The translations under genes and the position numbers were made by a program. Under the pieces are notes generated by a model, which saw nothing but the letters and a program-made list of their open reading frames with translations, searched no databases and had not been told where the DNA came from. From assembly GCF_004010195.1 (NCBI RefSeq), contig NC_057718.1, forward strand, positions 9,806,872-9,870,871: a stretch of 64,000 nucleotides of DNA, given 5' to 3'. The stretch is from Chiloscyllium plagiosum. Its lineage: Eukaryota. Of this stretch, positions 4,662 through 58,101 are shown piece after piece (position 1 is the first letter of the stretch; each line of letters begins with the position of its first letter).

Positions 4662-4833
4662 CTTGGTCATAGAAGACAGAGAGTAGTGGTGGAAGGGTGC
4701 TTTTTGGAGTGGAGATCAATAACTTGTGGTATTCCACAGGGATCAGTATTGGGACCTTTATTCTTTGTAAGATATATAAATGTGTTTTTGAAAGAAAAAA
4801 ATCATTGGGGTTGGTTAGCTTAGTTAGCTGGGT

Positions 4834-5037
4834 TGAAACTTTATTGCTGGAACAGCACAGCAGGTCAGGCAGCATCCAGGGAACAGGAGATTCGACGTTT
4901 CGGGCACAGGCCCTTCTTCAGGCCTGTGCCCGAAACGTCGAATCTCCTGTTCCCTGGATGCTGCCTGACCTGCTGTGCTGTTCCAGCAATAAAGTTTCAA
5001 CTTTGATCTCCAGCATCTGCAGACCTCACTTTCTCCT
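4834..5037 (+). mobile_element. Fold-back mini-element, family A (PLE pseudo-LTR)
   Basis: Perfect 81-bp inverted arms (4832-4912 and 4921-5001), 8-nt spacer, ~36-nt tail. 15-bp TSD cttagttagctgggt at 4819-4833 and 5038-5052. Confidence 0.92.
4890..4922 (-). ncRNA. Minimal hammerhead motif (family A)
   Basis: Reverse complement reads C-CTGAAGA-A-GGGC-CTGT-GCCC-GAAA-CG-TC-GAAT; the 5' strand of stem I is truncated by the inversion. Confidence 0.7.
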
Positions 5038-6944
5038 CTTAGTTAGCTGGGTGCCTGCTTTGTGTTGAGTGACATAAATGATCTGGAGGAAAATGTAAGT
5101 TTGTTTCTGACACCAAAACTGGTGGAGTTGCAGACAGTGAGGAGGCTTGTCTAAGGATACAGTGGGATATAGACAAATTGTACGTTTGGGCAGAGAATTG
5201 ACAACTGGAGTTTAAATGCAAGGTGATCCATTTTGGAAGGTCAAATTCAGATGCAAATTATGCAATAAATGGCAGAATCCTTAGGAGCATTGACATAAAA
5301 AGGGATCTGGGTGTATAGATCCACAGATCCCTGAAAATGGTAATACAGGTGGATTAGGTGGTCAAGGACACGTGCAGCATGATTACCTTCATTGGTCAGG
5401 GCTTTGAATGTAAAAGTTGGCAAGATATGTCACAGCTGTGTAAACCTTAATGAGGCCACATTTAGAATATTGTGTGCAGTTCTGGTTATTGCACTACCAG
5501 AAGGATGTGGATGCTTTGGAGAGAGTGCAGAGAAGATTTACCAGGATGTTGCCTGGTCCGAATGGTTTTAGGAATGAGGAGAGGTTGGATGAACTCTGAT
5601 TGTTTTCACTGGAAAGATGAAGGCTGAGAGGCGACCTGATAGAGGCTTTCAAAATTAAAAGAGGCCTAGATAGAGTGGATAGTCAGAGGCTTTTTCCCAG
5701 GTTACAAGAGGGCAGTTTCAAGGTGAGAGAGGGAAAGTTTAGGGGAGAAATGCAGGGAAAACATTTTACATAGAGAATGGTGAGTGCCTGACGCACTGCC
5801 AGTGGAGGTGGTGGAAGCAGGCATGTTAGCAACATTTAAGATGTATCCTGATAGACACGTGAACAGAGGGATAGAAATCGCATATGGGCAAAAAGTAGTG
5901 GGTCTAAATAAAGAATAGGAATCAGCGCAGACTTGGTGGGCCAAAGGGCCTGTTCCTGTTCCATTTTGTATTGTATTGTAACTCTCCTGGTTTTCTTCAA
6001 AATTTTATAACTGCCTGAGGTGAAAGATGAAGTTTCAGTGAAAGATGGCACCTCTGACATTGCTGCACTCGAATGTCACCATACATTTTGTACTCAACTC
6101 TGGCATGGAACTTAACCTTCTGCTACTCACTGAGCCAACTAATATTAGCTCATTAAAGTCGGTGGTCCCCTGGTCCTGACTCTTGCCAATCATCTGCTTA
6201 AATGTCCTCAACTTAAGAATATGAACTTTGTCCATATAGAATGTAGCATGTCACACCAGAAATTTGGCAGGATACCTTTGTCACTTAATTTGGAGACTTG
6301 TATGATGCTTTATCATAGGTAAAATTTTAAAAATGTTGGATGACTTGCTAATTGAAACATGCCAAGACACAGCTTTCCTATTGCCAGGAACTCTCCACCA
6401 CCCTAGCCCACAGGACTGTCCTTAACATAAGCCCAGGGAGTAGAAAGCTGTTTGATCTCCTGTGCGAGTGATCATTGAGCTCTATTCATGTTCTTGCCCG
6501 GCAACAACATATGTGTAACTTCTGGTATTGACATTGGATACCGATCACGAACAGGAATTTTGGCTATTTTGCCCCTTACAACTAAGCCATTAGTGGTCTT
6601 TGAACCACTGTCCAGAAATAAAGAAACAAAAAAAATGGACCATTATTGTTTTGCTGGAAAAAAAGACACATTTTGTCAATTTTTTTAATTTTACACTCAT
6701 CAGGGCATCCACAAGATCACTAATTTAAAGGGAACAAAATCTATTCTGTATAGTAAAGTAGTGTTTGGTACAGGTATTGCAATGGAAAATACACCAGTGA
6801 GATGATGGCTGACAGTTAACTGATAAGCTTTGTTTAGAACTAAACCATACAGGTTGTTGGTTATCAATTATAACTTATTGGTTGAAGTGTTGCAGTCCTC
6901 CACATGGCAATGTCTGCACGAGTGAGTAACATATGCTGTAAGCT

Positions 6945-7220
6945 TTGGTTCAATGGGTAGTGCTGTTGCTTCTGAGTCAGAACATTAAGGATGTACATGA
7001 CACTCTGTGGCCTTGAACACAATATTAGCTAACATCCCAGTGCAGTACTGAGGGGGAGCTGCACAGTCGGTACTACTAATATTCAGGTAAGAAGTTAAAT
7101 TAAAGCCCACAGACTGCCTTCTTAGGTACACATAAAAGTTCCCTCATTGCTGTTTTGTAAAGCAGGGGAGTTTGTTCACCTAAATAATCCAATCAATATT
7201 ACATCACTGTATGTGGGAAC
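6945..7220 (+). mobile_element. Old tRNA-derived SINE (DeuSINE/SacSINE-like). Similar relics near 9700, 27140, 30880, 40420, 59960
   Basis: Degenerate tRNA-like head and shared core cccagtgcagtactgaggg..gctgcac. Family name from recall. Confidence 0.55.
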
Positions 7221-7224
7221 TTAT

Positions 7225-7575
7225 AGAAATAGAATCCCTGCAGTGCAAAAAATAAGCTATTTGGCCCAACACGTCCACACTGACCCTCTAAAGAGTAACC
7301 CACCCAGACCCATTCCCCGTACCCTTTACTCTACACTTATGCCTGACTAATGCTCCTAACCTACACCTGAACACTATGGGCAATTTAGCATGGTCAATTC
7401 ACCTAACCTGCACATCTTTGGATTCTGCAAGGAAACCTACATACTCAGAGAAAACCTATGCCCACACGGGGAGGATGTGCAAACTCCACACAGACAGTCT
7501 CCTGAGGCTGGAATTGTACCCAGATCCCTGGCGCTGTGAGGCAGCAATGCTAACACTGAGCCACCGTGCTGCCCT
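7225..7575 (-). mobile_element. HE1-like V-SINE
   Basis: Reverse complement ggcagcacggtggctcagtgttagc head, V-domain tgtggagtttgcacatcctccccgtg, CR1-like tail. Confidence 0.85.
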
Positions 7576-7749
7576 TACTGTCCTTACCGTACTGCCCTTA
7601 CAAATTGGCTGCCATGCTTTTTTTCCATTACAACAGTTACTATCTTTCAAAAAAAGTATTATAGAACATTTTGAGATATCCAGGGAATGTGAAAAGTACT
7701 ACACAGTATAAGTACAAGCCCTTTTACTGAAGGTGCAAATTAGCCCAAC

Positions 7750-11356: not shown

Positions 11357-11390
11357 AAGTCATTACCTCATGACTGTTAATCGGGGCTTG

Positions 11391-12020: not shown

Positions 12021-12199
12021 CTTGTAGCGCATATATTAACTGCTATGTATATACATTACAACAGCAACTAAACTTCACAAGTACTGCATTGGCTATAACA
12101 TGCTCTGGGTGCAATATATAAATGTAAGTTAATGTCTTTCTTTACTAATCTATTATATAATGATTCAATAGTCCTTGATAGTGACAACGGTGTCAAATA

Positions 12200-26935: not shown

Positions 26936-27368
26936 GAAAAAGTAAACTTGTTAAGTACCTTTTTGCTTGTACATTCTTCCTCCCTCTTGTTGTTCACTGC
27001 TTTTGAAGAGGAGGAGGGACATTGTCACCAGCATTCTGGCTAATCCTTGTGGCTCAACCGAAACCCTTAAAAGTAATCTGCTGATTTATTATGCTGTTTC
27101 TAAGACCTTTGTGTAAATGGACGGTTGACTTTCCAGCTGTAGCTTAGTTGGTCACATTTTGGTCTCTGTCACAAAACTCTAGATTCAAATCTTGGTGCAG
27201 GATTTGAGCAGAAAATTCAATGCCAATAGGCTAGTACATTTCTGATGGAGTGCACACTGTCTGAGGTATATTCTTTTGGATGAGACCTTAAACTAAGGAC
27301 TTGTCTTACCCCTTGGATAGACAAATAATAAACAGTAGGTGCAGGAGTAGGCCATTCTGCCCTTCGAG

Positions 27369-27607
27369 GTAAAAACAATGACTGCAGATGCTGGAAACCA
27401 GATTCTGGATTACTGGTGCTGGAAGAGCACAGCAGTTCAGGAAGCATCCAAGGAGCAGCGAAATCGATGTTTCGGGCAAAAGCCCTTCATCAGGAATAAA
27501 GGCAGAGAGCCTGAAGCGTGGAGAGATAAGCTAGAGCAGGGTGGGGGTGGGGAGCTGCTCCTTGGATGCTGCCTGAACTGCTGTGCTCTTCGAGCACCAC
27601 TAATCCA
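27369..27607 (-). mobile_element. PLE family A' fold-back insert in the CR1 3'UTR
   Basis: 16-bp TSD cattctgcccttcgag (27353-27368, 27608-27623); partial inverted pseudo-LTR. Confidence 0.9.
27462..27497 (-). ncRNA. Minimal hammerhead motif
   Basis: Reverse complement ATTC-CTGATGA-A-GGGC-TTTT-GCCC-GAAA-CA-TC-GATT. Confidence 0.75.
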
Positions 27608-30600
27608 CATTCTGCCCTTCGAGCCAGCACCACCATTCATTATGATCATGGCTAATCATCCACAATCAGTATCCTGTTCCTGCCTTATCCCCCTTAAGAA
27701 CGCTATCCAACTCTTTCTTGAAAGTATCCAGAGACTTGGCCTCCACAGCCTTCTGGGGCAGAGCATTCCACACACCCACCACTCTCTGGGTGAAGAAGTT
27801 TCTCCTCAACTCTATTCTAAATGGCCTACCCCTTATTTTTAAACTGTGTCCTCTGGTTCGGGACTCGCCCATCAGCGGAAACATACTTCCTGCCAATCCT
27901 TTAATAATCTTATACGTCTCAATCAGATCCCCTATCAGCCTTCTAAACTCAAGGGTATACAAGCTCAGTCGCTCCAATCTTTCAACGTAAGATAGTCCCG
28001 CCATTCCGGGAATTGACCTCGTGAACCTATGCTGCACTCCCTCAATAGCCAGAATGTCTTTCCTCAAATTTGAGACCAAACTGCACACAGTATTCCAGGT
28101 GTGGTCTCACCAGGGCCCTGTACAGCTGCAGAAGGAACTCTTTGCTTCTATACTCAATTCCTCTTGTTATGAAGGCCAGCATGCTATTAGCTTTCTTCAC
28201 TGCCTGCTGTACCTGCATGCTTGCTTTCATTGACTGATGTACAAGAACACCTAGATCTCTTTGTACTGCCCCTTTACCTAACTTGACTCCATTTAGGTAG
28301 TAATCTGCCTTCCTGTTCTTGCCACCAAAGTGGATAGCCACACATTTATCCACATTAAACTGCATCTGCCATGCATCTGTCCACTCACCTAACCTGTCCA
28401 GGTCACCCTGTAATCTCCTAACATCCTCCTCACATTTCGCCCTACCAACCAGCTTGGTGTCATCAGCAAATTTGCTAATATTACTTTTAATACCATCATC
28501 TATATCATTAATGTATATTGTAAAAAGCTGTGGTCCCAGCACTGATCCCTGCGGTACCCCACTGGTCACCGCCTGCCATTCCGAAAGGGAGCCGTTTATC
28601 ACTACTTTTTGTTTCCTGTCACCCAACCAATTTTCAATCCAAGACAGTATCTTTCCCCCCATACGATGTGCCATAATTTTGGTCACTAACCTCCTATGTG
28701 GGGCTTTATCAAAGGCTTTCTGAAAGGTACACTACATCCACTGTATCTCCCTTGTTCATCTTCAGAGTTACATCAAAAAATTCCAGAAGATTAGTCAAGC
28801 ATAATTTCCCCTTCATAAATCCATGAAAGATCTGATGTCACTATCTTGAAGAGGAGCATTGGAATTAACCCAGTATCTTTATGAATATTTATTTCAATCA
28901 CCAAAATAGAGATTATCTGATCATTATCAAGTTATTTTTTTGTAGGACTTTATTGTTGCAAGATTGCTGTCTATGTTAAAATGACTACATTCAAAAAATA
29001 TTTAATTCAGGCAAAGCGATGAGATGCATGATGGACCTGCTGAGCACTATCTAGATGCAAATATTTCTTTAATTTTTTCCAACTTGGTTGCCACGTTTTC
29101 TACCTTGCAACAGTTCCTACATTTCAGAAAGTTCTTCATTGCTTGTAAAGCACTGTGGGATGTCTTGGGGTCGTTGAAAGCAAAATATAGATGTGTGTCT
29201 GCCTTTGTTTCAATAGAATACATTTCAAGTGTGGTCTCTGCTGGAGAGAAAATTATGGGGTAAGTGTCGTCAAGTACAGGTTGCAAGTTATTTCCTTGCT
29301 CTTGCTCTCTGTAAGTCTGTGTCTGCGAACTGTACAACTCTATGCATAATGTGAATTTTCTTTGCAATTAGCTGCGTGCTACTTCTTGATTTATTTAAAG
29401 GTGACAGTAATTGCTAGGATAAATGATTTTGTTGTTGTGCTGAAACTGATACTTGCAGCACCTCCAAGATTTCCTATGCATAACTGTGGGACTTGGCCAG
29501 CAAGTTGTGCGGGGAGTTCAAACCGTGGGGCCCTATGCTTGACATAAAAATTCAAGGGTTTTGAAGATGTAGCTGAGATACTGTTGTTTCAACAGGCAGC
29601 AGGGTTGGTAATTTAAGATAATTGGCAAAAAGAAAATCAGAGGGAAGTTGAGACTTTTGTGTTACTGAGCAAGTTGTGATGTTTTGGGACATGATGCTAA
29701 AAGCATCAATGGTAACTTCAAAAGAGAATGGGATACATACTTATGTGGGGCTCCAGAAATGAGCAGGGGTGTGAGATTAAGTAGGTAGCTCTTTCAAAGA
29801 GTCGGTACAGATAAGATGGGCTGAATGACCACCTCCCATTCTGAATAATTGCATGTAAAGCTGTAACATACTCTGTTGTGATGTATTGTCTCCACCCAAT
29901 GCCTCAATTCAATTGCTACCTGTAGGAAGCCCATTATTTTATGACTTCATGATTCTATCCATATTCCTTTGATCACTTTGTCTTTAGCTTGTCTGCTTTG
30001 TGCGGCAAAGAGTCTTCAAACACATCTATCAACCTGGTTTCTTTCAGCACTTGAGTCAAGACAAACATTGGAAATAAAAGCAGAGATATGCTGTTCAGTT
30101 CGTTGAGCTTGTTTTGGTTATTCATCTAAATCAAGGCTCATCTTCCACTTTGACACAATTTACCTGCGCTATCACCTTAATCCCCGATGTTTTTAATAGC
30201 TACAATTCAATTGATTTCTCTCTCAAATATGCTCAATGATTGAGTCTCCACAGCCCTCTGAAGCTGAGCATTCCAAAGATTCACAACCATCTGGGAGAAG
30301 AAATTCCTCCTTGTTTTAGTCCTAAATTGCTTACCTCTTATTCTGAAACCATGTTCTCTGGTTCTGGGCACACACAGACAGACAGGTAGACACCAAGCCA
30401 GGGGAGAAATCTTTCCTATTGCAACTCTGTCATATTTATGCAATGTTTCAATGAGGTTAAGAAAATAACAAGGTGGAGATCAAATATCTTCTTTCAACAT
30501 GTGGATCTATTTACTGTATGTTGCAAGGTCTTGCCATTGTGAGCTGCTGGACAGTCCATAGATTTCATTAATTACGAATGGGAGATCAGTGTTAAGGCTG

Positions 30601-32769: not shown

Positions 32770-32892
32770 ATGTCGAGATGAAGGGTCCTGCCCAAAACAT
32801 TGACTCTCCTCTGCTGCTTGAACTGCTGTGCTTTTTCCAGCTCCATATTTTACTGAGTCTGACTTTCCAACATCTGCAGTTCTCACTATCTC
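32770..32892 (+). mobile_element. Decayed family-A-related mini insert starting at a degenerate hammerhead
   Basis: gagatgaagggtcctgcccaaaacattgac...ccaacatctgcagttctcact; TSD cagcatgYtcat (32758-32769, 32893-32904). Confidence 0.7.
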
Positions 32893-33019
32893 CAGCATGT
32901 TCATCCAGAAGTTTTTCTGATCTTTTGCCATGTGAAATCATAGCAATCTCCTGCTCTTCGTGTGGCTTTATTTAAATCCAGTTTTGTGAAGTATTCGTAT
33001 AAGGTTAAGTATGGACATA

Positions 33020-33234
33020 GCTGAAAATGTGTTGCTGGAAAAGCGCAGCAGGTCAGGCAGCATCCAGGGAACAGGAGAATCGACGTTTCGGGCATAAGCC
33101 CTTCTTCAGGAATGTCAGCTTATGCCCGAAACGTCGATTCTCCTGTTCCCTGGATGCTGCCTGACCTGCTGCGCTTTTCCAGCAACACATTTTCAGCTCT
33201 GAACTCCAGCATCTGCAGACCTCACTTTCTCCTC
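33020..33234 (+). mobile_element. Fold-back mini-element, family A
   Basis: Perfect 81-bp arms (33019-33099 and 33118-33198), 18-nt spacer, tail. 14-bp TSD taagtatggacata (33006-33019, 33235-33248). Confidence 0.93.
33078..33113 (-). ncRNA. Minimal hammerhead motif (family A)
   Basis: Reverse complement ATTC-CTGAAGA-A-GGGC-TTAT-GCCC-GAAA-CG-TC-GATT. Confidence 0.78.
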
Positions 33235-35656: not shown

Positions 35657-36900
35657 TGTGATGATGACGTCACTTCAAGAGGTTATTTTGTCTTGTTTTT
35701 TTTGGAGAAGTTGTAAGGCAGAGAACACAAGCCGGGTCTAAGGAAGTAAACAATTTGTGAGGCCTTTGACGTTTATTTTAAAGTTGGAACAATGCAAGCA
35801 GCCTGGGTGTGGCCAGCTCTCTCAGACCATGCTTTCTCTTTTTTTTATATAGTTTTTAGGTGTAGTTTTAAGCAGATGCCTTTGGAGTCTCAAAAGAATC
35901 GGAAGCTTCAGTGAATGTCTTCTAGCTGCTATTTTTTTCTGAACCTGCTTTTAATGTTTCTTCCTGCTGGATTGGAGAACTGCATCTGAGAATCTGTGTC
36001 TGAACTTGCCAGGGGGCATTTTTATGGGCTGTTACTATATTGGAGCAGGGTAAAAACAATGACTGCAGATGCTGGAAACCAGATTCTGGATTAGTGGTGC
36101 TGGAAGAGCACAGGAGTTCAGGCAGCATCCGAGGAGCAGTAAAATCGATGCTTCGGACAAAAGCCCTTCATCAGGAATACAGGCAGAGAGCCTGAAGGGT
36201 GGAGAGATAAGTGAGAGGAGGGTGGGGCTGGGGAGAAAGTAGCATAGTGAACAATAGGTGAGTGGGGGAGGGGATGAAGGTGATAGGTCACGGGGGAGGG
36301 TGGAGTGGATAGGTAGAAAAGAAGATAGGCAGGTAGGACAAGTCATGGGGACAGTGCTGAGCTAGAAGTTTGGAACTGGGGTGAGGTGGGGGAAGGGGAA
36401 ATGAGGCGAGTTTGTTTCAGAACATGGTTGAAGAGCTTCAGGGCAGAGGAAATGACTTGGGAGTTGCAGTGGGAGAGGGACTTCCTGAGATTCTTGTAGA
36501 GAGAGGAGGAAAACTTCTTCAAGGCAGGCATCCTCGCGAGAGGATTCGCAGTAGGGTTAAAATCAACGAGGTAAAAACAATGACTACAGATGCTGGAAAC
36601 CAGATTCTGGATTAGTGGTGCTGGAAGAGCACAGCAGTTCAGGCACAGTTAATTAGTAATTGTTACTGTATTGATTATTCGGTTAAGTTCTCCAATAGTT
36701 AAGTTATTCTAAATTCCTCTTTCTTTTGTTTTATATTTTAACTGTAGCATTTAAATAAAATGTGTTTTGCTGACTGTCAAGTAGTTTGGTCAGTCGCATC
36801 GCATCTGGAACACAGTACTTCACATCTGCCTTTAAAGTAGGAAAAAGTTTGGGTCTGGGCTACCTTCTTAAAACATGGGGAGGAGATCTGGTCCAGAACA
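35657..36900. mobile_element. Solo LTR (TG...CA) containing a nested PLE
   Basis: TGTGA..GAACA termini; TSD atct/atat with one mismatch; related to 11391-12020; the host LINE fragment resumes after 36900. Confidence 0.75.
36050..36645 (-). mobile_element. Internally deleted PLE (family A') with two direct pseudo-LTR copies
   Basis: gtaaaaacaatgact..ggaagagcaca is repeated at 36050 and 36571. Between them lie the 3' region shared with 43465-43570 and a probable ORF N-terminus (MPALKKFSSSLYKNLRK). Decayed hammerhead at 36143-36178 (GAAA>GAAG). Confidence 0.85.
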
Positions 36901-39467: not shown

Positions 39468-39896
39468 GAGTGCAAGAAGAAAAGCTTCAGCAAAATCTCT
39501 AGGTAATACTTCAGTAAAATGTGTAGTATGGAGTTGTCACTCACAAATATCTGCTAGTTTCATTTCTTTCGGCACAAGTTGTAATTTTGGACCAGACGGT
39601 GTGTGTTGCTATGGCAGCAGCAGGACAGAGAAAGAGAGGGAGTCATAACATTGGAACCCAGTATACTTGGTTGAAAGGTGTTGAGAGCAGAAACAATGGA
39701 TTTATTTTCCATTCTTGTTCCCACTCATTTTGCTCTCATTCTCTTAACTCTATTCCATCCCCACCTTTTAAAAATCCCTGGAGACCTTTGACTCAAAACC
39801 TAAATCATGTGAGAGGCCAAGTGGGTTTGTTATTGATGGCCAGAACCCTGAGCCAATACTGCTATTTGTATAAATGTTAGACTGGTAACTTGCACA

Positions 39897-39980
39897 GGGT
39901 AATTGCCCGAAACGTCGATTTTGCCTGTCCTCGGATGCTGCCTGAATTGCTGTGCTCTTCCAGCACCACTGATCCAGAAT
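39897..39980 (+). mobile_element. 84-bp PLE pseudo-LTR fragment beginning at hammerhead stem II
   Basis: GGGT-AATT-GCCC-GAAA-CG-TC-GATT...; 15-bp TSD ctggtaacttgcaca (39882-39896, 39981-39995). Confidence 0.88.
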
Positions 39981-40689
39981 CTGGTAACTTGCACAAACTA
40001 TCTGTGATTGTACAAATGAAAGGCACCCAGTGGTCCCCACATGTGCCGCTGTCGTTTGTACATGAGCTGTTGTCTCACTGGGGAATGTTGTGCCTGGAAC
40101 AAGGTTTTGCTGGAGTCAGCTTTTCTGTAAACTGCAGATAAAAAAACAGTGAAACACGCACATTCTTTTTTACATTGCAGTCTGTTGAGTCATTCATTCA
40201 ATCTAAACAAAATCGTAAAATGCTGATCAGAGGCCTGTTTTACATTGAAAAAACCCTTTTAATGAAGATGTTATTACTTGTGATCCTGCCACCCTCTTTG
40301 CCTGTGCCATCCATTACTGAAAGTGTGCTATTTCTTGGCGTGTAGAATTCCACAATCTCCAGTTGTTCTGCGGCACCTCATCCAACTGACTATTCACTGT
40401 GCCAGCCACAGCTTCCTGTATAACATTCGCATCTCTGAATTTGTAGGTTCAACTTCCACTTCAGAGACTTGAGCTCTGGATTTAGGCTGACTGCTGACTA
40501 CAAGTATAGTGCTGTACTGAGTGAGTGCTTCACTGTTGCTGTGCTGCTTTCAGATGGATGTAAACAATCTTGTGGCACTATTTCAGAGAACAGCAACAGG
40601 ATTCATCTTGGCTTCTATCTAGCAGCATTCTCCCTGATGTCCTGGGCCTTATTTATCACTCAACTAATCCAGACAATCTGGCCATTACG

Positions 40690-43050: not shown

Positions 43051-43109
43051 AGTCTTCGGCAATTTAGCATCTTTAGTAGAAAAACACCCTCAGGCACTTT
43101 GAGGCATGA

Positions 43110-43675
43110 GTTATCCAAGGCCCTAAAGGAGCCTTCCACATCCATCAAAGTTTTACTTGCACATCCACTAATATCATTTATTGTATCCGTTGCTCCCGAT
43201 GCGGTCTCCTCTACATCAGGGAGATTGGGCGCCTCCAAAAGCAGAGTGCTTTAGGGAACATCTCCAGAACACCTGCACCAATCAACCACACCGCCCCGTG
43301 GCCCAACATTTCAACTCCCCCTCCCACTCTGCCGAGGACATGGAGGTCCTGGGCCTCTTTCACCGCTGCTCCCTCACCACCAGACGCCTGGAGGAAGAAT
43401 GCCTCATCTTCCACCTCGGAACACTTCAACCCCAGGGCATCAATGTGGACTTCAACAGCTCCCTCATTTCCCCTTCCCCCACCTCACCCCAGTTCCAAAC
43501 TTCCAGCTCAGCACTGTCCCCATGACTTGTCAGGAGTTGTCCTACCTGCCTATCTCCTTTTCCACCTATCCACTATTTCGAAGCTCTTTGGATGCTGCCT
43601 GAACTGCTGTGCTCTTCCAGCGCCACTAATCCAGAATCTGGTTTCCAGCATCTGCAGTCATTGTTTTTTACCTTG
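43110..43675 (+). mobile_element. PLE (family A', Neptune-like) GIY-YIG endonuclease and 3' end; hammerhead segment deleted
   Basis: Reads IQGPKGAFHIHQSFTCTSTNIIYCIRCSRCGLLYIRE, then after a frameshift FREHL..PVAQHFNSPSHS..LEEECLIFHLGTLQPQGINVDF. This is a GIY-YIG domain with CxxC/H ligands, followed by the family A' pseudo-LTR and tail. Confidence 0.88.
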
Positions 43676-43880
43676 TTTTAAAAAGAAGGTCTGCTTCAGG
43701 AAAGTGAAAATAATTAAGGATACCAACTTGAAGCATTAACCAACTCTGAGCTCTCTTCACAGATGCTGGCAGACCTGCTGAGTATTTTCCAGTATTTTGT
43801 GTTTTTCAAAGTTTGTGAAAAGATTTATAGCTCGGGTGCTCATTGTCGTGGTTCTATTCGCCGAGCTGGGAATTTGTGTT

Positions 43881-43920
43881 ACAGATGTTTCGTCCCCTGA
43901 CTAAGTGACATCCTCAGTGC
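43881..43920 (-). ncRNA. Minimal hammerhead motif (family C)
   Basis: Reverse complement GCA-CTGAGGA-T-GTC..GAC-GAAA-CA-TC-TGT. Confidence 0.7.
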
Positions 43921-44428
43921 TTAGGAGCCTACTGTGAAGCGCTTCTATGATCTTTCCTCCGGCATTTGTAGTGGTTTGAATCTGACGTTTCCAGTTGTCA
44001 GTTCCAGCTGTCTGTTGCAGTGGCCGGTATATTGGGTCCAGGTTGATGTGCTTATTGATTGAATCTATGGATGAGTGCCATGCCTCCAGGAATTCCCTGG
44101 CTGTTCTCTGTTTGGCTTGTCCTATGATAGTAGTGTTGTCCCAGTCAAATTCATGTTGCTTGTCATCTGCGTGTGTGGCTACTAAGGATAGCTGGTTGTG
44201 TCGTTTTGTGGCTAGTTGACTACACCAACGACAAGCCAAACAGAGGACAGCCAGGGAATTCCTAGAGGCATGGCACTCATCCACAGATTCAATCAATAAG
44301 CAGATCGACCTGGACCCAATATACTGGCCACTGCAACGGACAGCTGGATCTGACAACCGGAAGCGGCAGATTCAAACCACTACAAATGCCGGAGGAAAGA
44401 TCATAAGCGCTTCACAGGAGGCTCCCAA

Positions 44429-44468
44429 GCACTGAGGATGTCACCTAGACAGGGGACGAAACATCTGT
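44429..44468 (+). ncRNA. Minimal hammerhead motif (family C)
   Basis: GCA-CTGAGGA-T-GTC-A-CCT-AGAC-AGG-G-GAC-GAAA-CA-TC-TGT, with an extended stem II. Confidence 0.75.
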
Positions 44469-44524
44469 AACACAAATTCCCAGCTCGGCGAACAGAGCCA
44501 CAACATTTTGTGTTTTTGTTTCAA

Positions 44525-45250
44525 AGAACAGCACAGTGCAGGAACAGGCCTTGGGCCTACCAAGCCTATGCTGACACATAACACCTTCCGAAACTAAAAA
44601 CTCCTTGCGTCCATGCAATCCATAATCCCTCTATTCCCTGCCTATTCATGTATCTGTCAAGGTGTCTCTTAAGCATTGCTATTGTATATGTTTCTCCACA
44701 GCCCTGAAGAAGGGATACACCTGAAACGTCGACTTCTCCACCTCCTGATGCTGCCTGGCTTGCTGTGTCCTTCCAGCCTCTCGCCTCTCTATTTTGGATT
44801 CCAGCATCTGCAGTTTTTTTTTTTGTGTCTCTCTCACTTCCTCTGGCAGCGCATTCTAGGCACATACCACTCCCTGTGCTTCCAAATAAACCTGTTGGAC
44901 TATAACCTGGCACTGTGTGATTTTTAATTTAGTTTAAAAAAAGATTTGCCTCTCAAGTCTCCTTTAAACTTTCCCTTGTTTACCATAAACCGATGTCCCC
45001 TAGTGACTGAGATTTCTGCCCTGAGAAAAAGACTCCAACTCTCCGTTCTATCTATGCCACTCATAATTCTGTAAATTTCTATCAGGTCGCCCCTCAGCCT
45101 TTGATGTTCAAGTGAAGGCAAAACCGCATTTGTCCAATCTCTCCTTGTAGCCAATGCCCTCCAAACCAGGCAACCGCCTGGCAAACCTATTCTGTACCCT
45201 CTCCAAAGCATTTATATTGTTTTGGTAGTGTGGTGACTAGAACTATATTG
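44525..45250 (-). mobile_element. CR1 3' fragment with nested family-A-related (44701-44825) and family B (44875-44930) pieces
   Basis: QRLRGDLIEIYRIMSG..TRGHRF on the minus strand; the nested pieces match other copies in the window. Confidence 0.8.
44703..44733 (+). ncRNA. Minimal hammerhead motif (family A variant)
   Basis: C-CTGAAGA-A-GGG-ATACA-CCT-GAAA-CG-TC-GAC; the insert begins at the core. Confidence 0.65.
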
Positions 45251-45914: not shown

Positions 45915-46160
45915 ACATAAAGTTAAAAATCACACAACACCAGGTTATAGTCCAACAGGTTTAATCCGAAGCACTAGCTTTTGGAGCGCCACTCCTTCAT
46001 CATCACAATCACCTGATGAAGGAGTGGCGCTCCGAAAGCTAGTGTGCTTCCAATTAAACTGTTGGACTATAACCTGGTGTTGTTGTTGGACTATAACCTG
46101 GTGTTGTGTGATTCTTAACTTTGTACACCCCAGTCCAACACTGGCATGTCCAAATCATGT
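45915..46160 (+). mobile_element. Fold-back mini-element, family B
   Basis: Inverted arms meet at about 46003-46012; 3' tail; internal ~24-bp duplication; TSD ctactgag (45907-45914, 46161-46168). Confidence 0.88.
46010..46044 (+). ncRNA. Minimal hammerhead motif (family B), all core bases intact
   Basis: CAC-CTGATGA-A-GGAG-TGGCG-CTCC-GAAA-GC-TA-GTG; stem I CAC/GTG, palindromic AGCT, predicted cleavage after 46041. Confidence 0.82.
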
Positions 46161-50449: not shown

Positions 50450-50967
50450 CACGATATGGAGGAACCGGTGTTGGACTGGGATGGACAAAGTTTAAAAATC
50501 ACACAACATCAGGTTGAAGTCCAACAGGTTTATTTGGAAGCACAAGCTTTTGGAGCACCGCCCCTTCAGGTAGCTGTGGGTCAGGACCATAAGACACAGA
50601 ATTTTTATAGCAAAAGATTACAGTGTCATGCAACTGAAATGATATTTTGAACAAACCTAGATTGCTGTTAAGTCTTTCATCTTTTAGAATAGGTTGTAGG
50701 TTTTGCTTCATTAATATGTAAATCCCAGAACAATTATTAAGTCACATTCTATTTTACTGAAAAAGTAAACAACCCTGCAGGCAGTCAATTCATGTAATAT
50801 TTTAATAAATTCCTCTTTGGAAGTAGAACTAGTCTGACTCAAAATTTGAATACAGGCACACTCTAACCTCACACCTTTGATGCTTTGTCTGAGTTGAGAT
50901 GTCTCCTTTTTAAATAAAACCTTAAGTTATCTCGTGAATCTGATTTAAAAGAAGTTCTGGGATTTAC
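50450..50967 (-). mobile_element. Longer family B element 3' region with decayed hammerhead (about 50540-50572)
   Basis: Shares tail and pseudo-LTR with 45915-46160, then extends ~400 bp of AT-rich sequence. Confidence 0.75.
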
Positions 50968-51286
50968 AGTAGCAATAAAAATGTTGGGTGTGGGTGAGAC
51001 AAGACTGACGGTCAAGAATGATTCAATTGGGTCATGAAGCTTATGTTCAGAGAATATGATAGGTGTGGAAGGGCAGAGGATCTTGAAATTAGCATGTTGG
51101 GTAACCAATGGTTTTTTGAGTAAGTAAGAGATCATGTGATGAAATCTCCAGAAACATCCAACTACAGTTCACAATCTGAGACATTATTGATCCCAATCAA
51201 GTGGGATCACTCCATCTTTAGTTGAGTGGAGTTTGAGTTTTTCTGTGCTTTAAGCTGCACGATGCTTAACTGCACTTAATAAGGTA

Positions 51287-51393
51287 GGAGAAAGTGAGGT
51301 CTGCAGATGCTGGAGATCAGAGCTGGAAATGTGTTGCTGGAAAACCAAAACCAAAAGCGCTGGACCTGCTGCGCTTTTCCAGCAACACATTTC
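51287..51393 (-). mobile_element. 107-bp family A fold-back remnant
   Basis: Tail plus 20-bp inverted arms (51325-51344 and 51375-51394); 17-bp TSD ctgcacttaataaggta (51270-51286, 51394-51410). Confidence 0.88.
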
Positions 51394-52172
51394 CTGCACT
51401 TAATAAGGTATAAAGCTATTGTAAACAATCCTGATAGAATGAGGTGAGAAGGCTAGAAGAAAAGCAGAGAAGCCAGTGTTAAACATCTAACACATTTGAC
51501 GAATTTCTGCCCTGAGCATCTGTCAAAATTGCCTGATATGAACAGAGGGAAAGTGACTGAATTTTGAGCTGATTGCTCGAACTCCAATGGCATTGCTCAG
51601 AAACAGCGATTTAGACAACACACAGTTGTGGTCAAATAAAGAAAAACTGCTCACTACGGTTTTGCAAAAATCAGAGCATGATGAAGAGAGGAACGGGAAA
51701 TAGAGACTTTGAGAGTTCTGTTTTTGTTAGTGCCTGATGTTGTGTGGTGTCAAGAGAGATGTTATAGGGCTGGAAACCTGCCTCCCTTTACCCAGCCTGA
51801 TGGTACATGACTCCAGTCCCACAGCAATTGGGTAACTCTTAGAGGTCTGTAAAGCAGCCCAAGAGAGCTACCCAAGTAAGATAAAACTGGTTCTATTACC
51901 TTCTCCAGACACTGACTGTAGCAGCTCAAGGATGATATGAACAATAGACGCCAGCCTTGCTTATGTCCGGTACTAATGGACAATTCTGATCGCAGAATAA
52001 AATATGGATTGATAGATCATATGTTTGTTTTAATTTGTTCATTTAGTTAATGTGGTGATTAGTAATTGAGAAATTCTCTCATAAGACTTCAGATTTTCTT
52101 TAACAGAAGTAATTATGCAATTTTTAAAAAACATGCTAACTAAATATGGAAGACAGTTAGATCACAAAATAT

Positions 52173-53970: not shown

Positions 53971-54753
53971 AGTGACCCCGACTTGTCGACTTTCTAATTT
54001 CTTAGAACTGACCCCGATGATTCTGCCTCTTTTTTCAAAACAATACAAATTTCAAGAATGGTACATATCGCACCCCTTTCACCACAATATAAACAGGTTC
54101 ATGTGAAACAGAACTGCTAAACAAGAATTCTACCTGATGTTTCAGAGCCCAGGGAAAAGTTACTTTGTGATGCAGGATAGGATTACCTGGGGATAATGTA
54201 GGATACTGCACTTAGGTAGAGAAGTGATATCATCAGTCAATGAAAATAAATCTAGAAGTTAGTTACAGTCATTCCTTTCTTCTGCATTATTGTCCTTTCC
54301 CCTTCTCAATAGAAGCTGGAGTAAGCCATTTTTAAAATTCCTTCCTTCCTTCCTCTCTACCCCCAAGCATTGCTGTGAAGACCAAATTTCTAATGGATGC
54401 AAAAGTCTCCAATAGTCGAGGAAGGAAGCTTACATTTAACACTCGGTGACAGTTTCTGCAGCTGGCCTTCCTTCCTGAACCATATATCACCCTTGGTTGC
54501 CTGTGCAACTGTCTGCTCTGATTTAGAGGCGTTACATTCTCTGTCTCTCTCTCTTCCTCTCCACCTGCCTCCACCTCACCAAATGATGACCTTAAATACA
54601 TTTTTTAGCATAATGAACCCTTATTTGGGCTGTTGTTGTAACTGTTCCAATCCACAATTATATGCTAGGTTGTTTTGCCACACAGGTGGGGCTGGGGACA
54701 TATCTCAGTGAATAAGGCCCAGCTGTGTTGCTCCCTGTATTAATGTGATTATA

Positions 54754-55660
54754 GCTGAAAATGTGTTGCTGGAAAAGCGCAGCAGGTCAGGCAGCATCCA
54801 GGGAACAGGAGAATCGACGTTTCGGGCATAAGCCCTTNNNNNNNNNNNNNNNNNNNNNNNNNNNNNNNNNNNNNNNNNNNNNNNNNNNNNNNNNNNNNNN
54901 NNNNNNNNNNNNNNNNNNNNNNNNNNNNNNNNNNNNNNNNNNNNNNNNNNNNNNNNNNNNNNNNNNNNNNNNNNNNNNNNNNNNNNNNNNNNNNNNNNNN
55001 NNNNNNNNNNNNNNNNNNNNNNNNNNNNNNNNNNNNNNNNNNNNNNNNNNNNNNNNNNNNNNNNNNNNNNNNNNNNNNNNNNNNNNNNNNNNNNNNNNNN
55101 NNNNNNNNNNNNNNNNNNNNNNNNNNNNNNNNNNNNNNNNNNNNNNNNNNNNNNNNNNNNNNNNNNNNNNNNNNNNNNNNNNNNNNNNNNNNNNNNNNNN
55201 NNNNNNNNNNNNNNNNNNNNNNNNNNNNNNNNNNNNNNNNNNNNNNNNNNNNNNNNNNNNNNNNNNNNNNNNNNNNNNNNNNNNNNNNNNNNNNNNNNNN
55301 NNNNNNNNNNNNNNNNNNNNNNNNNNNNNNNNNNNNNNNNNNNNNNNNNNNNNNNNAACTCAGCACCGCCTTCCTAACCTGCAATCTTCTTCCCGACCTC
55401 TCCGCCCCCACCCCAGTCTGCCCTATCACCCTCACCTTGACCTCTTTCCACCTATCACATTTCCGACGCCCCTCCCCCAAGTCCCTCCTCCCTACCTTTT
55501 ATCTTGGCCTGCTGGACAAACTTTCCTCATTCCTGAAGAAGGGCTTATGCCCGAAACATCGATTCTCCTGTTCCCTGGATGCTGCCTGACCTGCTGCGCT
55601 TTTCCAACAACACATTTTCAGCTCTGATCTCCAGCATCTGCAGACCTCACTTTCTCCTCC
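54754..55660 (+). mobile_element. Family A PLE with inverted pseudo-LTR, spanning a gap (N 54838-55356)
   Basis: The left end is the reverse complement of the right pseudo-LTR; 14-bp TSD ttaatgtgattata (54740-54753, 55661-55674). Confidence 0.92.
55529..55564 (+). ncRNA. Minimal hammerhead motif (family A)
   Basis: ATTC-CTGAAGA-A-GGGC-TTAT-GCCC-GAAA-CA-TC-GATT. Confidence 0.75.
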
Positions 55661-56555
55661 TTAATGTGATTATATTGTGGTTGTGTGACCAAACAGTCTA
55701 AGGCACTAGATTTGGGTTCCAACGGCCCTTGTGGTACAGTGGTTATGACCCTATCTCTGAGTCAGAAGGTCGGAGTTCAAGTCCCACCTGCACCAGAGGT
55801 GTCTAATAACATCTCTGAACAGGTTGGCTAGAAAATATCTACAATAGCCATACCCATTTGTAGAGATGACTGTGAACCAGCTGAAGGTAAGGAACAAGAG
55901 TCAGGTTTGTATCATCTCACAATGAGACTTTTATTTTACTGTTCCCAGTCTTGTCTGGTCTCACCCCTCCGCACTTGGGGAAGGTTTGTTATCGTTAGAA
56001 CCAGTGTAGTTTTCCATGCCACGAGCCTAGTGATGGCTGCCATATTCTGTATAGAGGGTCAGAAAGCAAGCAACCGCATGTGTTTAGAGCATTTTCATGA
56101 ACTGATGACATTTCAAAGTATTCTGTGGCCCGTGAATCACCTTTTGTTTTAAGGTGAAGTCGCTGTTGTGATATAGTAAATGCAGCAGCAGATTTATACA
56201 CAGTACGCTCCCACAGGCAGCAGTGTGAAAAAGTAGAGATGATCAGTCTTATTTATTTCTGACGTTTGTTTGAGAAGCAACTTTTTTGTTCTTGTCACCA
56301 GGGAAGGTTGACCCCCCACCCTGTTCTCATAGATCTTCTCTCACTTCCTTATACCCCTCCATCTCCACATTTATGTTGTGCAGAGCTTCAAGAGAGCTAA
56401 GAAAACCCGGAGCTAACCTGGATGCTTATAAATGTGCTCCTTGTCCAAAAGAAACCCGATGATGTAGTAAATAACTGAAAGGCATTTTTAAAAGTTTGAT
56501 CACATCTCACAATAGCCTAATATTGTGAAGTAAAAGATATTGGGAGAATACTTTT

Positions 56556-57030
56556 CAGATGTTCATAGCTCCTTGAAAGTGGAGTTGCAGGTAGGTAGGA
56601 TAGTGAAGAAGGCGTTTGGTATGCTTTCCTTTATTGGTCAGAGTATTGAGTACAGGAGTTGGGAGGTCATGTTGCGGCTGTACAGGACATTGGTTAGGCC
56701 ACTGTTGGAATATTGCGTGCAATTCTGGTCTCCTTCCTATCGGAAAGATGTTGTGAAACTTGAAAGGNNNNNNNNNNNNNNNNNNNNNNNNNNNNNNNNN
56801 NNNNNNNNNNNNNNNNNNNNNNNNNNNNNNNNNNNNNNNNNNNNNNNNNNNNNNNNNNNNNNNNNNNNNNNNNNNAGAGGCATTTGGATGGGTATATGAA
56901 TAGGAAGGGTTTGGAGGGATATGGGTCGGGTGCTGGCAGGTGGGACTAGATTGGGTTGGGATATCTGGTCGGCATGGATGGGTTGGACCGAAGGGTCTGT
57001 TTCCATGCTGTACACCTCTATGACTCTATG
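56556..57030 (+). mobile_element. CR1/HER1-like 3' fragment with gap (N 56768-56875)
   Basis: [19 protein letters not shown]; tail ctctatgactctatg. Confidence 0.92.
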
Positions 57031-58010
57031 TTCTTAATGTAGCCAAACATCATTTTTATGGGGTTTTTTTGTGCTGCTGAGCAAATTCCCAAAGCATCTC
57101 TACAACCGTTGCAGCTTCAGCTAGAGAACCAGGTGAGTAAGCAGGTGGGCATTTTACAGACCACTCGTGAAAATCTTCCTTTTCTTTCATTGATGCATTT
57201 TGTTTGTTATCCTGATCCACGCCTCAGAAATGCTTGCGGTTATCTAGGGCAGTTTTATTGGTTTCCTACTGCATGGTTATTGTGTGATGTCGTAGGTAAC
57301 ATGACTACCTGGACCTTCTAATCAACTTTTCGGGTGTCATCTGTATTAGTCCAAGACATTCCTTGACTTGCTTCCACCATCTCTCGTTTCATTTCTAGAG
57401 TTAAAGAAAGATCTGGTAAAAGCTGGGTAACAGTCTGGCTTTAGCTGCATTGAAATATCTCTTGGTGCATTCCAGATGACAGCGAGAGCAGTTTGCAGGC
57501 ATTGCCCCAGGCTTGCCTGTGCTTTCACAATCTAGTGAGGCCTAACTCTGTTTCAGTTGCTTGCACAGCCATATGACTAATCCACAGTTGCCAATCCAGA
57601 ACTTTGATTTATCATGTGAATCTTTTTTCTATTGGGTTTCCTATTCTGCGGAAGGTGGCTGATGGTTTTGCCACAAATGGAGTTTCAGGTTTTCCGAATT
57701 TGACTGTTTGTGATTTCAGTATATGTCCAAGTAGTATGCCACTCTATTTTGGATGTATATCACTGTCCCTTCATTGCTGGTCAAAACATTTGGAAACTGG
57801 CAACTTCAATGTGCAGATGGCTCGTGAAGAATTCCCATCAGCTTTCTCAAGGTCCTTGAAGTATGAGGAATAAATGCTAGCTGAGCTGGTGATGCTCCTA
57901 TTTAGAAAGAGAACTTCTAAAATCTGTTACAGGGGTTGCAAACTGGAAGTGATGAGAGGGAGGTGAACAGAGTTGAGATTTAATTGCTGTGTGTAAATGG
58001 ATATATGAGT

Positions 58011-58101
58011 TTAGATCAGAGTGGTGCTGGAAAAGCACAGCAGGCAGCATCCGAGGAGCAGGAAAATTGACGTTTCGGGCAAAAGCCCTTCATCAGGAAT
58101 A
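58011..58101 (-). mobile_element. ~90-bp family A-type pseudo-LTR insert whose 5' end is the hammerhead (58065-58100)
   Basis: Reverse complement ATTC-CTGATGA-A-GGGC-TTTT-GCCC-GAAA-CG-TC-AATT, then pseudo-LTR sequence. Confidence 0.82.

What the first reader, a model, noticed from the sequence alone, without database searches (positions are those of the whole stretch)
4819..58101. 5' truncation and inversion breakpoints of mini-inserts cluster at the hammerhead itself
Seen: independent inserts (most with their own distinct TSDs) start or fold back within a few nt of the ribozyme. At 4913-4922 and 33100-33118 the inverted arm stops at the core/stem I and the direct arm starts in stem II. At 46003-46012 the two ribozyme copies meet back to back. 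At about 4573 the inverted arm ends in stem II, and 39897 is the first base of stem II. The inserts at 44701, 58101 and 32770 begin at stem I/core. Inference: reverse transcription stalls or template-switches at the ribozyme fold, or a ribozyme-bounded RNA is the mobilised template. Either would generate a stereotyped ~80-250 bp non-autonomous element.
Basis: partly seen in the sequence, partly recalled or inferred. Interest (0 to 1): 0.75.

Follow-up and report, generated by a model that had tools for sequence, protein, structure and literature searches.

The report
Penelope-like mini-inserts ending at hammerhead edge
The short inserts and fold-backs are stubby copies of an active Penelope-like retrotransposon, and most of them stop within a few bases of the upstream edge of its small hammerhead ribozyme motif, a regularity that may help explain how these elements copy themselves.

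Summary
Every named coordinate is as described. The inserts are 3'-terminal pieces of Penelope-like elements (PLEs): GIY-YIG endonuclease and RT coding lie upstream on the same strand.

I added 300 kb of flanking genome. Counting from C3 of CUGANGA as 0:
- Family A: 33 of 55 mapped 5' ends fall in -8..+15, 18 of them in -8..-1, with the mode at -4/-5.
- Family B: 15 of 27 fall in -10..+16.
- Per-base stop rate at the family A edge is about 11-20 times that of the flanks (p 3e-12; flanks only 7e-9).

Reads laid on a long copy show a 4.5-fold depth step at the same place and loose ends at -4.

Fold-backs are single insertions. They carry 10-17 nt target duplications, and 29 of 34 have exactly one tailed arm.

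Best reading (0.5): both target strands prime reverse transcription, as published for a PLE. cDNA runs off a discrete RNA 5' end at the ribozyme's upstream edge and then jumps templates. A stall at the fold is less likely, and ribozyme cleavage does not set the ends.

This is known PLE architecture with an apparently unreported positional rule.

The parts
4496..4665 (.). Family B fold-back. Inverted arm 4496-4574 has no tail and its 5' end is at +6 in stem II. Direct arm 4572-4665 has a tail and its 5' end is at +26. Flanked by a 10-nt TSD.
4834..5037 (.). Family A fold-back. Inverted arm 4834-4922 has no tail and its 5' end is at -1. Direct arm 4921-5037 has a 37-nt tail and its 5' end is at +9/+10. 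The arms are 81/81 identical. 15-nt TSD at 4819-4833 and 5038-5052.
27367..27641 (.). Family A2 fold-back whose joint is not at the hammerhead. The tailed arm 27367-27555 (-) starts at -62. The partner arm 27554-27641 (+) starts at +34.
32777..32895 (+). Diverged family A copy that begins inside the core. The CUGA is missing.
33019..33234 (.). Family A fold-back. Inverted arm 33019-33114 has no tail and its 5' end is at -5. Direct arm 33118-33234 has a tail and its 5' end is at +10. There is a 3-nt filler, the arms are 81/81 identical, and the TSD is 14 nt.
36049..36235 (-). Family A2 copy that runs on upstream of the hammerhead (a long copy). A separate 3' fragment starting at +52 lies at 36569-36643 (-).
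39896..39985 (+). Simple untailed mini-insert that starts at the first base of stem II (+7/+8). 15-nt TSD.
43401..43673 (+). Old long copy. It holds the endonuclease C-terminal coding, the 3' UTR, a decayed hammerhead region and the tail.
44702..44838 (+). Diverged family A mini-insert that starts at -2.
44875..44933 (+). Family B 3' fragment that starts at about +30, next to the would-be cleavage site.
45919..46160 (.). Family B fold-back. Inverted arm 45919-46002 has no tail and its 5' end is at +1. Direct arm 46003-46160 has a tail and its 5' end is at -10. The two hammerhead motifs sit back to back.
50453..50651 (-). Family B long copy that runs at least 78 nt upstream of the hammerhead.
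51286..51397 (.). Family A fold-back made of 3' ends only (5' ends at +67 and +50). 17-nt TSD. Its joint lies far from the hammerhead.
54753..55657 (.). Inverted pair split by the assembly gap at 54838-55356. The untailed arm is 54753-54837 (-). The tailed long arm is 55363-55657 (+), reaches at least -170, and has C3 at 55533. This arm was the reference for the read lay.
57998..58100 (-). Family A2 untailed mini-insert that starts at -4.
61789..61867 (-). Family A 3' fragment that starts at +50.
43798..44551 (.). Head-to-head inverted pair of a third hammerhead-bearing family (C, core CUGAGGA). Its joint lies about 257 nt upstream of the motifs, so it is a counter-example to joints at the hammerhead.

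Best explanation
The mini-inserts and fold-backs are dead-on-arrival 3'-terminal copies of active Penelope-like elements (PLEs).

The element's GIY-YIG/RT protein cuts both target strands, 10-17 nt apart. Each 3'-OH primes cDNA on element RNA at one of two internal start sites. These sites lie about +126 (tailed) and about +90 (untailed) downstream of a minimal hammerhead.

Most cDNAs run only 95-130 nt. They end at a discrete RNA 5' end that sits 0-1 nt upstream of helix I of the hammerhead (-4/-5 in family A, about -7 in family B). That end is most likely the transcription start of the element's terminal-repeat promoter (an initiator-like CA), or otherwise a processing site.

At that end the RT adds a few bases and jumps onto the other, usually unfinished, cDNA. 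The two antisense copies are thereby welded head to head.

Shown here: PLE identity, the pile-up of ends, single-event fold-backs, and one tailed arm per fold-back.

Inferred: that the boundary is an RNA 5' end, how that end is made, and the order of the jumps.
For: PLE identity:
- GIY-YIG hit PF01541 and RVT_1 hit PF00078 lie upstream on the same strand as the family A hammerheads.
- Homologues P0004 and P0008 carry RVT_1 together with endonuclease-region domains; my own scan of P0004 gave GIY-YIG at 21.1 bits, below the 22.6 cutoff.
- Endonuclease copies are 93-100% identical, and some lie in open frames of up to 1467 aa.

Pile-up of ends:
- Family A: 18 of 55 ends fall in -8..-1 and 15 in 0..+15. 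Of 51 arms that reach +15, 18 pass -8.
- Family A stop rate is 0.084 per nt at the edge, against 0.0078 downstream and 0.0042 upstream.
- Family B: 9 of 27 ends fall in -10..-1.

Sharpness:
- Curated joints put many arms exactly at -4/-5.
- Loose ends in laid reads sit at 55529 (= -4; 69 RNA reads with unlike flanks) and 55530.
- Many joints land on 55529/55530, and depth steps up 4.5-fold there.

Position, not length: tailed and untailed arms both end there.

No hairpin is predicted just upstream of -4.

Fold-backs are single events:
- TSDs of 10-17 nt flank the whole structure.
- Arm-to-arm identity ranges from 84.5 to 100%, so they are of varied age.
- Exactly one arm is tailed in 29 of 34.

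Literature:
- A PLE protein nicks and extends both strands, starts RT at two internal sites that explain the tail, and gives products whose length follows the RNA 5' end. Hammerhead mutants change nothing (PMC11167929, main text).
- D. virilis Penelope has an internal initiator-type promoter in its terminal repeat (PMC2377424, passages).
Against: - No pile-up of read starts at -4 appeared in the one RNA run that laid (table 6: none). That library is single-cell poly(A), and 92% of its reads run on into unlike sequence, so they come from embedded copies.
- In D. virilis the start site lies 46 nt plus a 75-nt intron upstream of helix I, not next to it.
- I could not fetch a full-length copy to see where its 5' end lies.
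- 15 of 55 family A ends lie inside the motif (0..+15). A single sharp RNA end explains these only through unfinished second cDNAs or trimming.
- No consistent extra G, which a copied cap might leave, precedes -4.
- The match to an initiator consensus rests on my recall of that consensus.
- Family B starts are more ragged (-6 to -10).
- The one family C fold-back has its joint about 257 nt upstream.
Confidence: 0.5

Rival explanations
1. The RT itself terminates or switches template at the hammerhead. Either the folded three-way junction, or element protein bound to it, acts as a barrier or template boundary, even on RNAs that continue upstream.
For: - Ends are enriched across the whole motif, not only at its edge. 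Family A has 15 ends in 0..+15 and a local group of 6 in +31..+39. Family B has 6 in +23..+30.
- The start coincides with the first helix I base in two families whose helix I differs in length (4 and 6 nt).
- The published hammerhead cleaves only when protein is present, which implies protein contact near it (PMC11167929).
Against: - The mode is at the far (5') side of the fold, after every helix has already been copied.
- The genome-wide depth step at +16..+39 is only about 8%.
- No structure is predicted upstream of -4.
- In vitro, a PLE RT copies through its hammerhead to the RNA end, and hammerhead mutants do not change product size.
Confidence: 0.27
2. The mini-inserts form a self-propagating non-autonomous lineage (SINE-like, or a monomeric 'retrozyme'). 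Its master copies begin at the hammerhead and borrow the PLE machinery.
For: - Units are stereotyped at about 95-130 bp, and the laid depth in a DNA run is very high.
- If the promoter is internal, as in D. virilis Penelope, mini copies would carry it.
- A 2026 preprint relates animal retrozymes to PLE terminal repeats (abstract and results section read).
Against: - Each subfamily (A1, A1b, A2, A2b) has both long copies that run into RT/EN coding and mini copies with the same diagnostic bases.
- No mini-specific variants were seen.
- No tandem arrays were seen in the 364 kb.
Confidence: 0.12
3. Hammerhead self-cleavage makes the template's 5' end.
For: A few ends lie near the cleavage site. 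Family B has ends at +29, +29 and +30. Family A has ends at +26 and +28.
Against: - Cleavage would put ends at +28 (A) or +29 (B).
- Only 2 of 55 family A ends lie within 2 nt of it, while 33 lie 13-36 nt upstream of it.
- There is no depth step at that place.
- Published data found no reads ending at the cleavage site.
Confidence: 0.04
4. The short fold-backs are assembly artefacts, that is, collapsed longer inverted repeats.
For: 8 of 85 family A arms abut runs of N on their 5' side, one of them in the window at 54838-55356. PLE structures are known to trouble assemblies (PMC8557442).
Against: - TSDs flank whole fold-backs.
- Each joint has its own unique filler.
- Older fold-backs have arms that have diverged to 84.5-97% identity.
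- Raw RNA reads (12 reads from 11 starts) and contigs of other runs carry opposite-strand joints at -4/+7.
Confidence: 0.03

Closest known systems
Insertion architecture of endonuclease-bearing Penelope-like elements (Penelope/Poseidon/Neptune)
   Same: All of the following are described in PMC8557442 and PMC4209133 (passages read) and are seen here:
- heavy 5' truncation;
- an inverted 5'-truncated copy placed head to head;
- a 30-40 bp tail at only one end;
- a hammerhead near the 3' end;
- dual hammerheads on opposite strands;
- most hammerheads occurring as single motifs of truncated copies.
   Different: Those papers, as far as I read them, do not say where truncation and inversion points fall. 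Here they pile up at the upstream edge of the hammerhead. My searches found no statement of this. Papers behind paywalls and supplements were not seen.
PAc (Poseidon of Anolis) in vitro target-primed RT, Frangieh et al. 2024 (PMC11167929)
   Same: Both strands are nicked and extended, and two internal RT start sites explain the tail. The hammerhead lies about 90-120 nt upstream of the start sites, the same spacing as here (+90 and +126).
   Different: In vitro, start-site choice did not differ between strands. Here 29 of 34 fold-backs have exactly one tailed arm. The paper reports raised RNA coverage at the repeat-ORF junction but no rule for 5' ends.
L1 twin priming (5' inversions of LINE-1); recalled, not read here
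   Same: The second target strand primes a second cDNA, which produces an inverted 5' part.
   Different: Twin priming gives inversion with deletion of non-overlapping segments. Here both arms copy the same segment, giving an inverted duplication, and the joints cluster at one place.
R2 and other non-LTR elements with HDV-like ribozymes (mentioned in PMC4209133); RT template jumping is recalled
   Same: A ribozyme sits at the RNA's 5' end, and 5' junctions are formed by run-off followed by a template jump with added bases.
   Different: HDV-like ribozymes cut at their own 5' edge and so create the end. A hammerhead cuts about 30 nt inside, and the ends here are not at that site. No HDV-like, hatchet or other 5'-cutting ribozyme matched at E up to 10.
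Animal non-LTR retrozymes and hammerhead satellites (bioRxiv 10.64898/2026.07.22.740005; PMC4209133)
   Same: Short hammerhead-bearing repeats related to PLE terminal repeats, with dispersed monomers.
   Different: Retrozymes are defined by tandem units processed into circles at the cleavage site. Here there are no tandems in 364 kb, and unit ends are not at the cleavage site.

Membership tests
Penelope-like element (EN+) | [quoted passage not shown] | tested here: met
   PF01541 at 23.9 bits (cutoff 22.6) on L014:8649-8939. The coding lies upstream of family A hammerheads on the same strand.
Penelope-like element (EN+) | Reverse transcriptase in the same ORF (telomerase-like clade) | tested here: inconclusive
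   RVT_1 at 31.5 bits (cutoff 29.6) on L023:8416-9597, about 400 nt plus an N gap upstream of a family A hammerhead. Homologue P0004 has RVT_1 plus a GIY-YIG hit at 21.1 bits, below the 22.6 cutoff. Clade placement was not tested, and no intact ORF was fetched.
Penelope-like element (EN+) | Partial-tandem pseudo-LTRs | not testable with these tools
Penelope-like element (EN+) | Inverted 5'-truncated copy adjacent head to head | tested here: met
   21 family A pairs and 13 family B pairs in 364 kb.
Penelope-like element (EN+) | 30-40 bp tail at one end only | tested here: met
   The tail is 37 nt in family A and about 40 nt in family B. Exactly one arm is tailed in 29 of 34 fold-backs.
Minimal type I hammerhead of PLEs (min-HHR) | Conserved cores CUGANGA and GAAA around helix II with a G-C closing pair | tested here: met
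   38 exact-core hits with a helix II of at least 3 bp in 364 kb. Helix II pairs 3 and 4 covary between families (G-C/A-U and C-G/G-C).
Minimal type I hammerhead of PLEs (min-HHR) | Very short palindromic helix III (works as a dimer) and a cleavage-site H | tested here: met
   ACGU followed by C (family A) or AGCU followed by A (family B) in 26 of 38 hits. Most of the remaining hits are CpG-decay variants.
Minimal type I hammerhead of PLEs (min-HHR) | Helix I | tested here: inconclusive
   Only 3-4 pairs in family A and 5 of 6 in family B. Contiguous pairs counted in 26 hits were 0 to 4.
Minimal type I hammerhead of PLEs (min-HHR) | Self-cleavage | not testable with these tools
   Needs an in vitro assay with dimeric constructs or with added protein.
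Rfam hammerhead families | Match to a curated covariance model | tested here: not met
   No hammerhead hit at gathering score or at E up to 10. This is expected for motifs without a helix III hairpin.
Non-LTR retrozyme | Tandem units bounded by hammerhead cleavage sites | tested here: not met
   No tandem arrays of families A or B in 364 kb. Unit ends are not at +27/+28.

The most novel reading that the evidence does not exclude
The minimal hammerhead, held by the element's telomerase-related RT, marks a template boundary, much as the boundary element of telomerase RNA does. It would set the 5' limit of the segment that is normally copied. The about 95-130-nt unit from start site to hammerhead would then be the element's default product and longer copies would be boundary read-through. 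That would give the PLE hammerhead, whose role is still called unclear in the literature, a non-catalytic function.
Probability: 0.15. Interest if true: 0.8.

Novelty: new member of a known kind. Interest (0 to 1): 0.5.

Why it matters
How PLEs transpose, and why nearly all of them carry a hammerhead, are open questions. The papers read here call the hammerhead's function unclear.

A sharp, family-specific 5' limit at the motif's upstream edge accounts for about two thirds to four fifths of copies. That turns the question into simple experiments: map RNA 5' ends, and run in vitro target-primed RT on templates that extend past the motif.

Three other points follow:
- It explains why animal genomes hold huge numbers of solitary and back-to-back minimal hammerheads.
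- It shows that such fold-backs, which are perfect hairpins of up to about 90 bp, are made in one insertion event. This matters for small-RNA biology and for assembly gaps.
- The rule of one tailed arm per fold-back constrains models of how the two strands are primed.

Tried and rejected
- Rfam at gathering score and at E up to 10: no hammerhead or other ribozyme. Only sub-threshold miRNA-like hits, caused by the palindromes.
- DNA search of the window's own genome with a family A arm: nothing, because its words are too common.
Loci of endonuclease hits could not be cut. No full-length copy was therefore seen.
- Sequencing runs: no RNA holder listed. Run X22 laid 0 reads. Table 6 showed no places where many molecules begin.
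- Earlier findings of this scan: none.
- Supplement search of PMC11167929: no hits in 3 files.
- Family C: only 3 copies, too few to test.
- A fixed cDNA length as the cause: rejected, because tailed and untailed arms stop at the same base.
- A hairpin upstream of -4 as a block: not predicted.
- Cap-derived extra G at 5' joints: not seen.
- Which arm is the longer one: the untailed arm in 18 of 27 pairs, not significant (p 0.12).
- A downstream-promoter-element reading of the ACGU helix: dropped. The spacing is off by about 3 nt, and in D. virilis that element lies upstream of the intron.

Rows dropped before the counts, from 85 family A arms:
- 5 abut N runs with nothing known beyond.
- 9 are old or below 75% identity, or belong to another old family.
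- 5 are ORF-part or duplicate HSPs.
One long copy was added back as censored. Three gap-adjacent arms with RT/EN coding beyond the gap were counted as running on.

Full report
**What is there**

The window lies in a 3.56-Gb genome. Rfam finds no hammerhead at gathering score or at E up to 10. The named sites nevertheless belong to two abundant repeat families with the anatomy of the minimal hammerheads described for Penelope-like elements (PLEs):
- a CUGANGA core;
- a one-base bulge;
- a 4-5 bp helix II;
- GAAA;
- a 4-nt palindrome in place of helix III (ACGU in family A, AGCU in family B);
- a cleavage-site C or A;
- a short helix I.

In 364 kb there are 38 exact-core hits with a paired helix II, and 26 of them keep the palindrome. 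Most of the remaining hits are CpG-decay variants. Helix II pairs 3 and 4 covary between families. A third, rare family C has a CUGAGGA core.

**Identity**

Long copies continue upstream into coding sequence on the same strand.
- A 97-aa stretch scores as GIY-YIG (PF01541, 23.9 bits, cutoff 22.6).
- A 394-aa stretch about 400 nt plus a gap upstream of a family A hammerhead scores as RVT_1 (31.5 bits, cutoff 29.6).
- Homologues found with the endonuclease piece include 812- and 897-aa proteins with RVT_1 and endonuclease-region domains. The closest named hits are from cartilaginous fishes. My own scan of the 897-aa one gave RVT_1 plus GIY-YIG at 21.1 bits, just under the cutoff.
- In the window's own genome the endonuclease piece has 114,614 first-look candidates. 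The 150 that were scored are 93-100% identical, and some sit in open frames of 700-1467 aa.

This is therefore a young, probably active PLE. The layout is ORF, then a 3' UTR of 0-190 nt, then the hammerhead, then about 90 nt to an untailed end or about 126 nt to a tailed end.

**Checking the observation**

Positions are counted from C3 of CUGANGA = 0. Every coordinate in the finding is as described; the details are in the observation check.

To test for chance I added 300 kb of flanking sequence. I mapped all arms by BLAST against natural long and short copies, building no consensus.

Family A, 67 usable arms (dropped rows are listed under Tried and rejected). Twelve run on upstream, and 55 end as follows:

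| Interval | Ends |
|---|---|
| +40 or beyond | 7 |
| +16..+39 | 9 |
| 0..+15 | 15 |
| -8..-1 | 18 |
| -13..-9 | 2 |
| further upstream | 4 |

- The stop rate per base is 0.084 in -8..-1, against 0.0078 downstream and 0.0042 upstream.
- The likelihood-ratio p is 3e-12 overall and 7e-9 in the flanks alone.
- For the a-priori motif interval -4..+31 the flanks give p 4e-4. The window alone gives p 0.4 (n=16).

Family B, 35 arms. Eight run on upstream, and 27 end as follows:

| Interval | Ends |
|---|---|
| -17..-11 | 3 |
| -10..-1 | 9 |
| 0..+16 | 6 |
| +17..+34 | 6 |
| further downstream | 3 |

- In the flanks, p is 2e-3 to 4e-4.

The edge intervals were chosen after seeing the data, and BLAST ends are good to about 3 nt.

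**Genome-wide check**

I laid four runs on the long copy at 55357-55700, where C3 = 55533 and -4 = 55529.

| Run | Depth at -20..-9 | Depth at +4..+15 | Downstream |
|---|---|---|---|
| X1 (DNA contigs) | 2.17 M | 9.76 M | roughly level (6.8-14.3 M) |
| X21 (RNA raw reads) | about 120 | 578 | 815 two bins on |
| X17 | 11.8 k | 191 k | not summarised |

- The strongest upstream loose ends are at 55529 (69 RNA reads with unlike flanks, agreement 0.36) and at 55530.
- Opposite-strand joints link 55529 to 55540 (12 raw RNA reads from 11 starts, plus one DNA contig) and 55529 to 55622.
- Many 'goes back' joints land on 55529/55530.
- Caveats: contig depth is not a copy number. The 90% likeness filter favours subfamily A1. 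X22 laid no reads.

**Anatomy of the fold-backs**

- There are 21 family A pairs and 13 family B pairs.
- Many are flanked as a whole by TSDs of 10-17 nt, so each is one insertion.
- Arm-to-arm identity runs from 100% down to 84.5%. This is the age spread expected of real loci, not of assembly collapse.
- Exactly one arm carries the tail in 29 of 34 (binomial p 4e-5 against independent choice).
- Usually one arm reaches -5..+5 and the other stops short. The longer arm is the untailed one in 18 of 27 (p 0.12).
- Joints show fillers of 1-12 nt, microhomologies of 1-4 nt, and small duplications or inversions of the last 6-12 nt. These are marks of repeated template switching at a template end.
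- Not all joints are at the motif. The fold-backs at 27367-27641 (-62/+34) and 51286-51397 (+67/+50), and the family C pair (about -257), are exceptions.

**Mechanism**

Published work on a lizard PLE (PMC11167929, main text read) shows that:
- the protein nicks and extends both strands;
- RT starts at two adjacent internal sites, whose spacing is the tail;
- product length follows the 5' end of the RNA supplied;
- hammerhead mutants change neither activity nor product size;
- no RNA-seq reads end at the cleavage site.

That accounts for the inverted duplication and the tail. It also argues that the fold is not a strong block.

In my data the mode lies at the upstream edge of helix I, after the RT has copied every helix. 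It is the same for tailed and untailed arms, so it is a position and not a length. No hairpin is predicted just upstream.

I therefore favour a discrete RNA 5' end at -4/-5 (family A) and about -7 (family B). The RT runs off this end, adds a few bases and jumps to the other cDNA.

How that end arises is inferred. The bases there read pyrimidine-A and fit an initiator-like start (consensus recalled). D. virilis Penelope has an initiator-type internal promoter in its terminal repeat (PMC2377424, passages). In that species, however, the start lies 46 nt plus a 75-nt intron upstream of helix I, and the intron's 3' end abuts helix I (PMC4209133, passages).

The RNA run gave no read-start pile-up (table 6), but it is a single-cell poly(A) library dominated by embedded copies.

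**Rivals**

- A barrier made by the fold or by bound protein remains possible (0.27). Ends are enriched across the whole motif, and the start tracks helix I in two families with different helix I lengths.
- A separate non-autonomous lineage is unlikely. Long and mini copies share subfamily-specific bases.
- Ribozyme cleavage does not set the main peak.
- Assembly artefact is unlikely. Even so, 8 of 85 arms abut N runs, including the window gap at 54838-55356.

**Comparison and novelty**

The following are all described for PLEs (PMC8557442, PMC4209133; passages read):
- heavy 5' truncation;
- inverted 5'-truncated partners;
- a one-sided tail;
- terminal hammerheads;
- solitary or opposite-strand hammerhead pairs.

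I did not find a statement that truncation and inversion points concentrate at the hammerhead's upstream edge, or that fold-backs carry exactly one tail as a near rule. Paywalled papers, figures and most supplements were not seen. The 2017 paper on dimeric PLE hammerheads appears only in others' reference lists.

So these are new members of a known kind of element, with a positional regularity worth testing.

Noticed in passing
364 kb around the window (L001-L030 plus window); in the window 4496-4665, 4834-5037, 33019-33234, 45919-46160: Exactly one arm of a fold-back carries the 37-40 nt tail in 29 of 34 cases (16 of 21 family A, 13 of 13 family B). That is far from independent choice of the two published RT start sites (p 4e-5). 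No fold-back clearly had two tailed arms.
   Followed up: partly
window 54838-55356; L-loci arms at S coordinates 90825, 96039, 129930, 137222, 294106, 338831: 8 of 85 family A arms abut runs of N on their 5' side. For 3 of them RT/EN coding lies beyond the gap. Assembly gaps seem to sit at inverted or long PLE structures.
   Followed up: partly
window 4517-4608, 4862-4971, 33050-33167: The fold-backs would fold into near-perfect hairpins of up to about 90 bp. They draw sub-threshold Rfam hits to miRNA precursor families (36-37 bits against gathering scores of 82-104). They could be sources of hairpin small RNAs if transcribed.
   Followed up: no
window 9881-9954: An unrelated AT-rich perfect hairpin hits mir-9457 on both strands (38.8 bits, E 3e-4, gathering score 90).
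   Followed up: no
window 1902-2421, 43798-44551: A third hammerhead-bearing family (C) has core CUGAGGA, a 3-bp helix II with a long loop, and at least 250 nt of shared upstream sequence. There are only 3 copies in 364 kb, two of them forming a head-to-head pair.
   Followed up: partly
family A copies, e.g. window 4921-5037: Predicted long-range pairing between about +44..+52 and the tail (about +98..+110) encloses the untailed end. This may correspond to the stem-loop in which the published PLE RT starts.
   Followed up: no
L005 (S 48467-48479) and L021 (S 267930-267941): Joints carry small duplications or inversions of the terminal 6-12 nt of the element. It looks as if the RT switched back and forth at the template end.
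   Followed up: no
G000, many contigs: The endonuclease piece has 114,614 first-look candidates. The 150 scored are 93-100% identical, and several lie in open frames of 700-1467 aa. The element family looks recently or currently active.
   Followed up: partly
window 55357-55700 as laid: 92% of the laid RNA reads continue into sequence unlike the element. Most expression signal therefore comes from copies embedded in other transcripts. One flank recurs with 0.85 agreement behind 55656.
   Followed up: no
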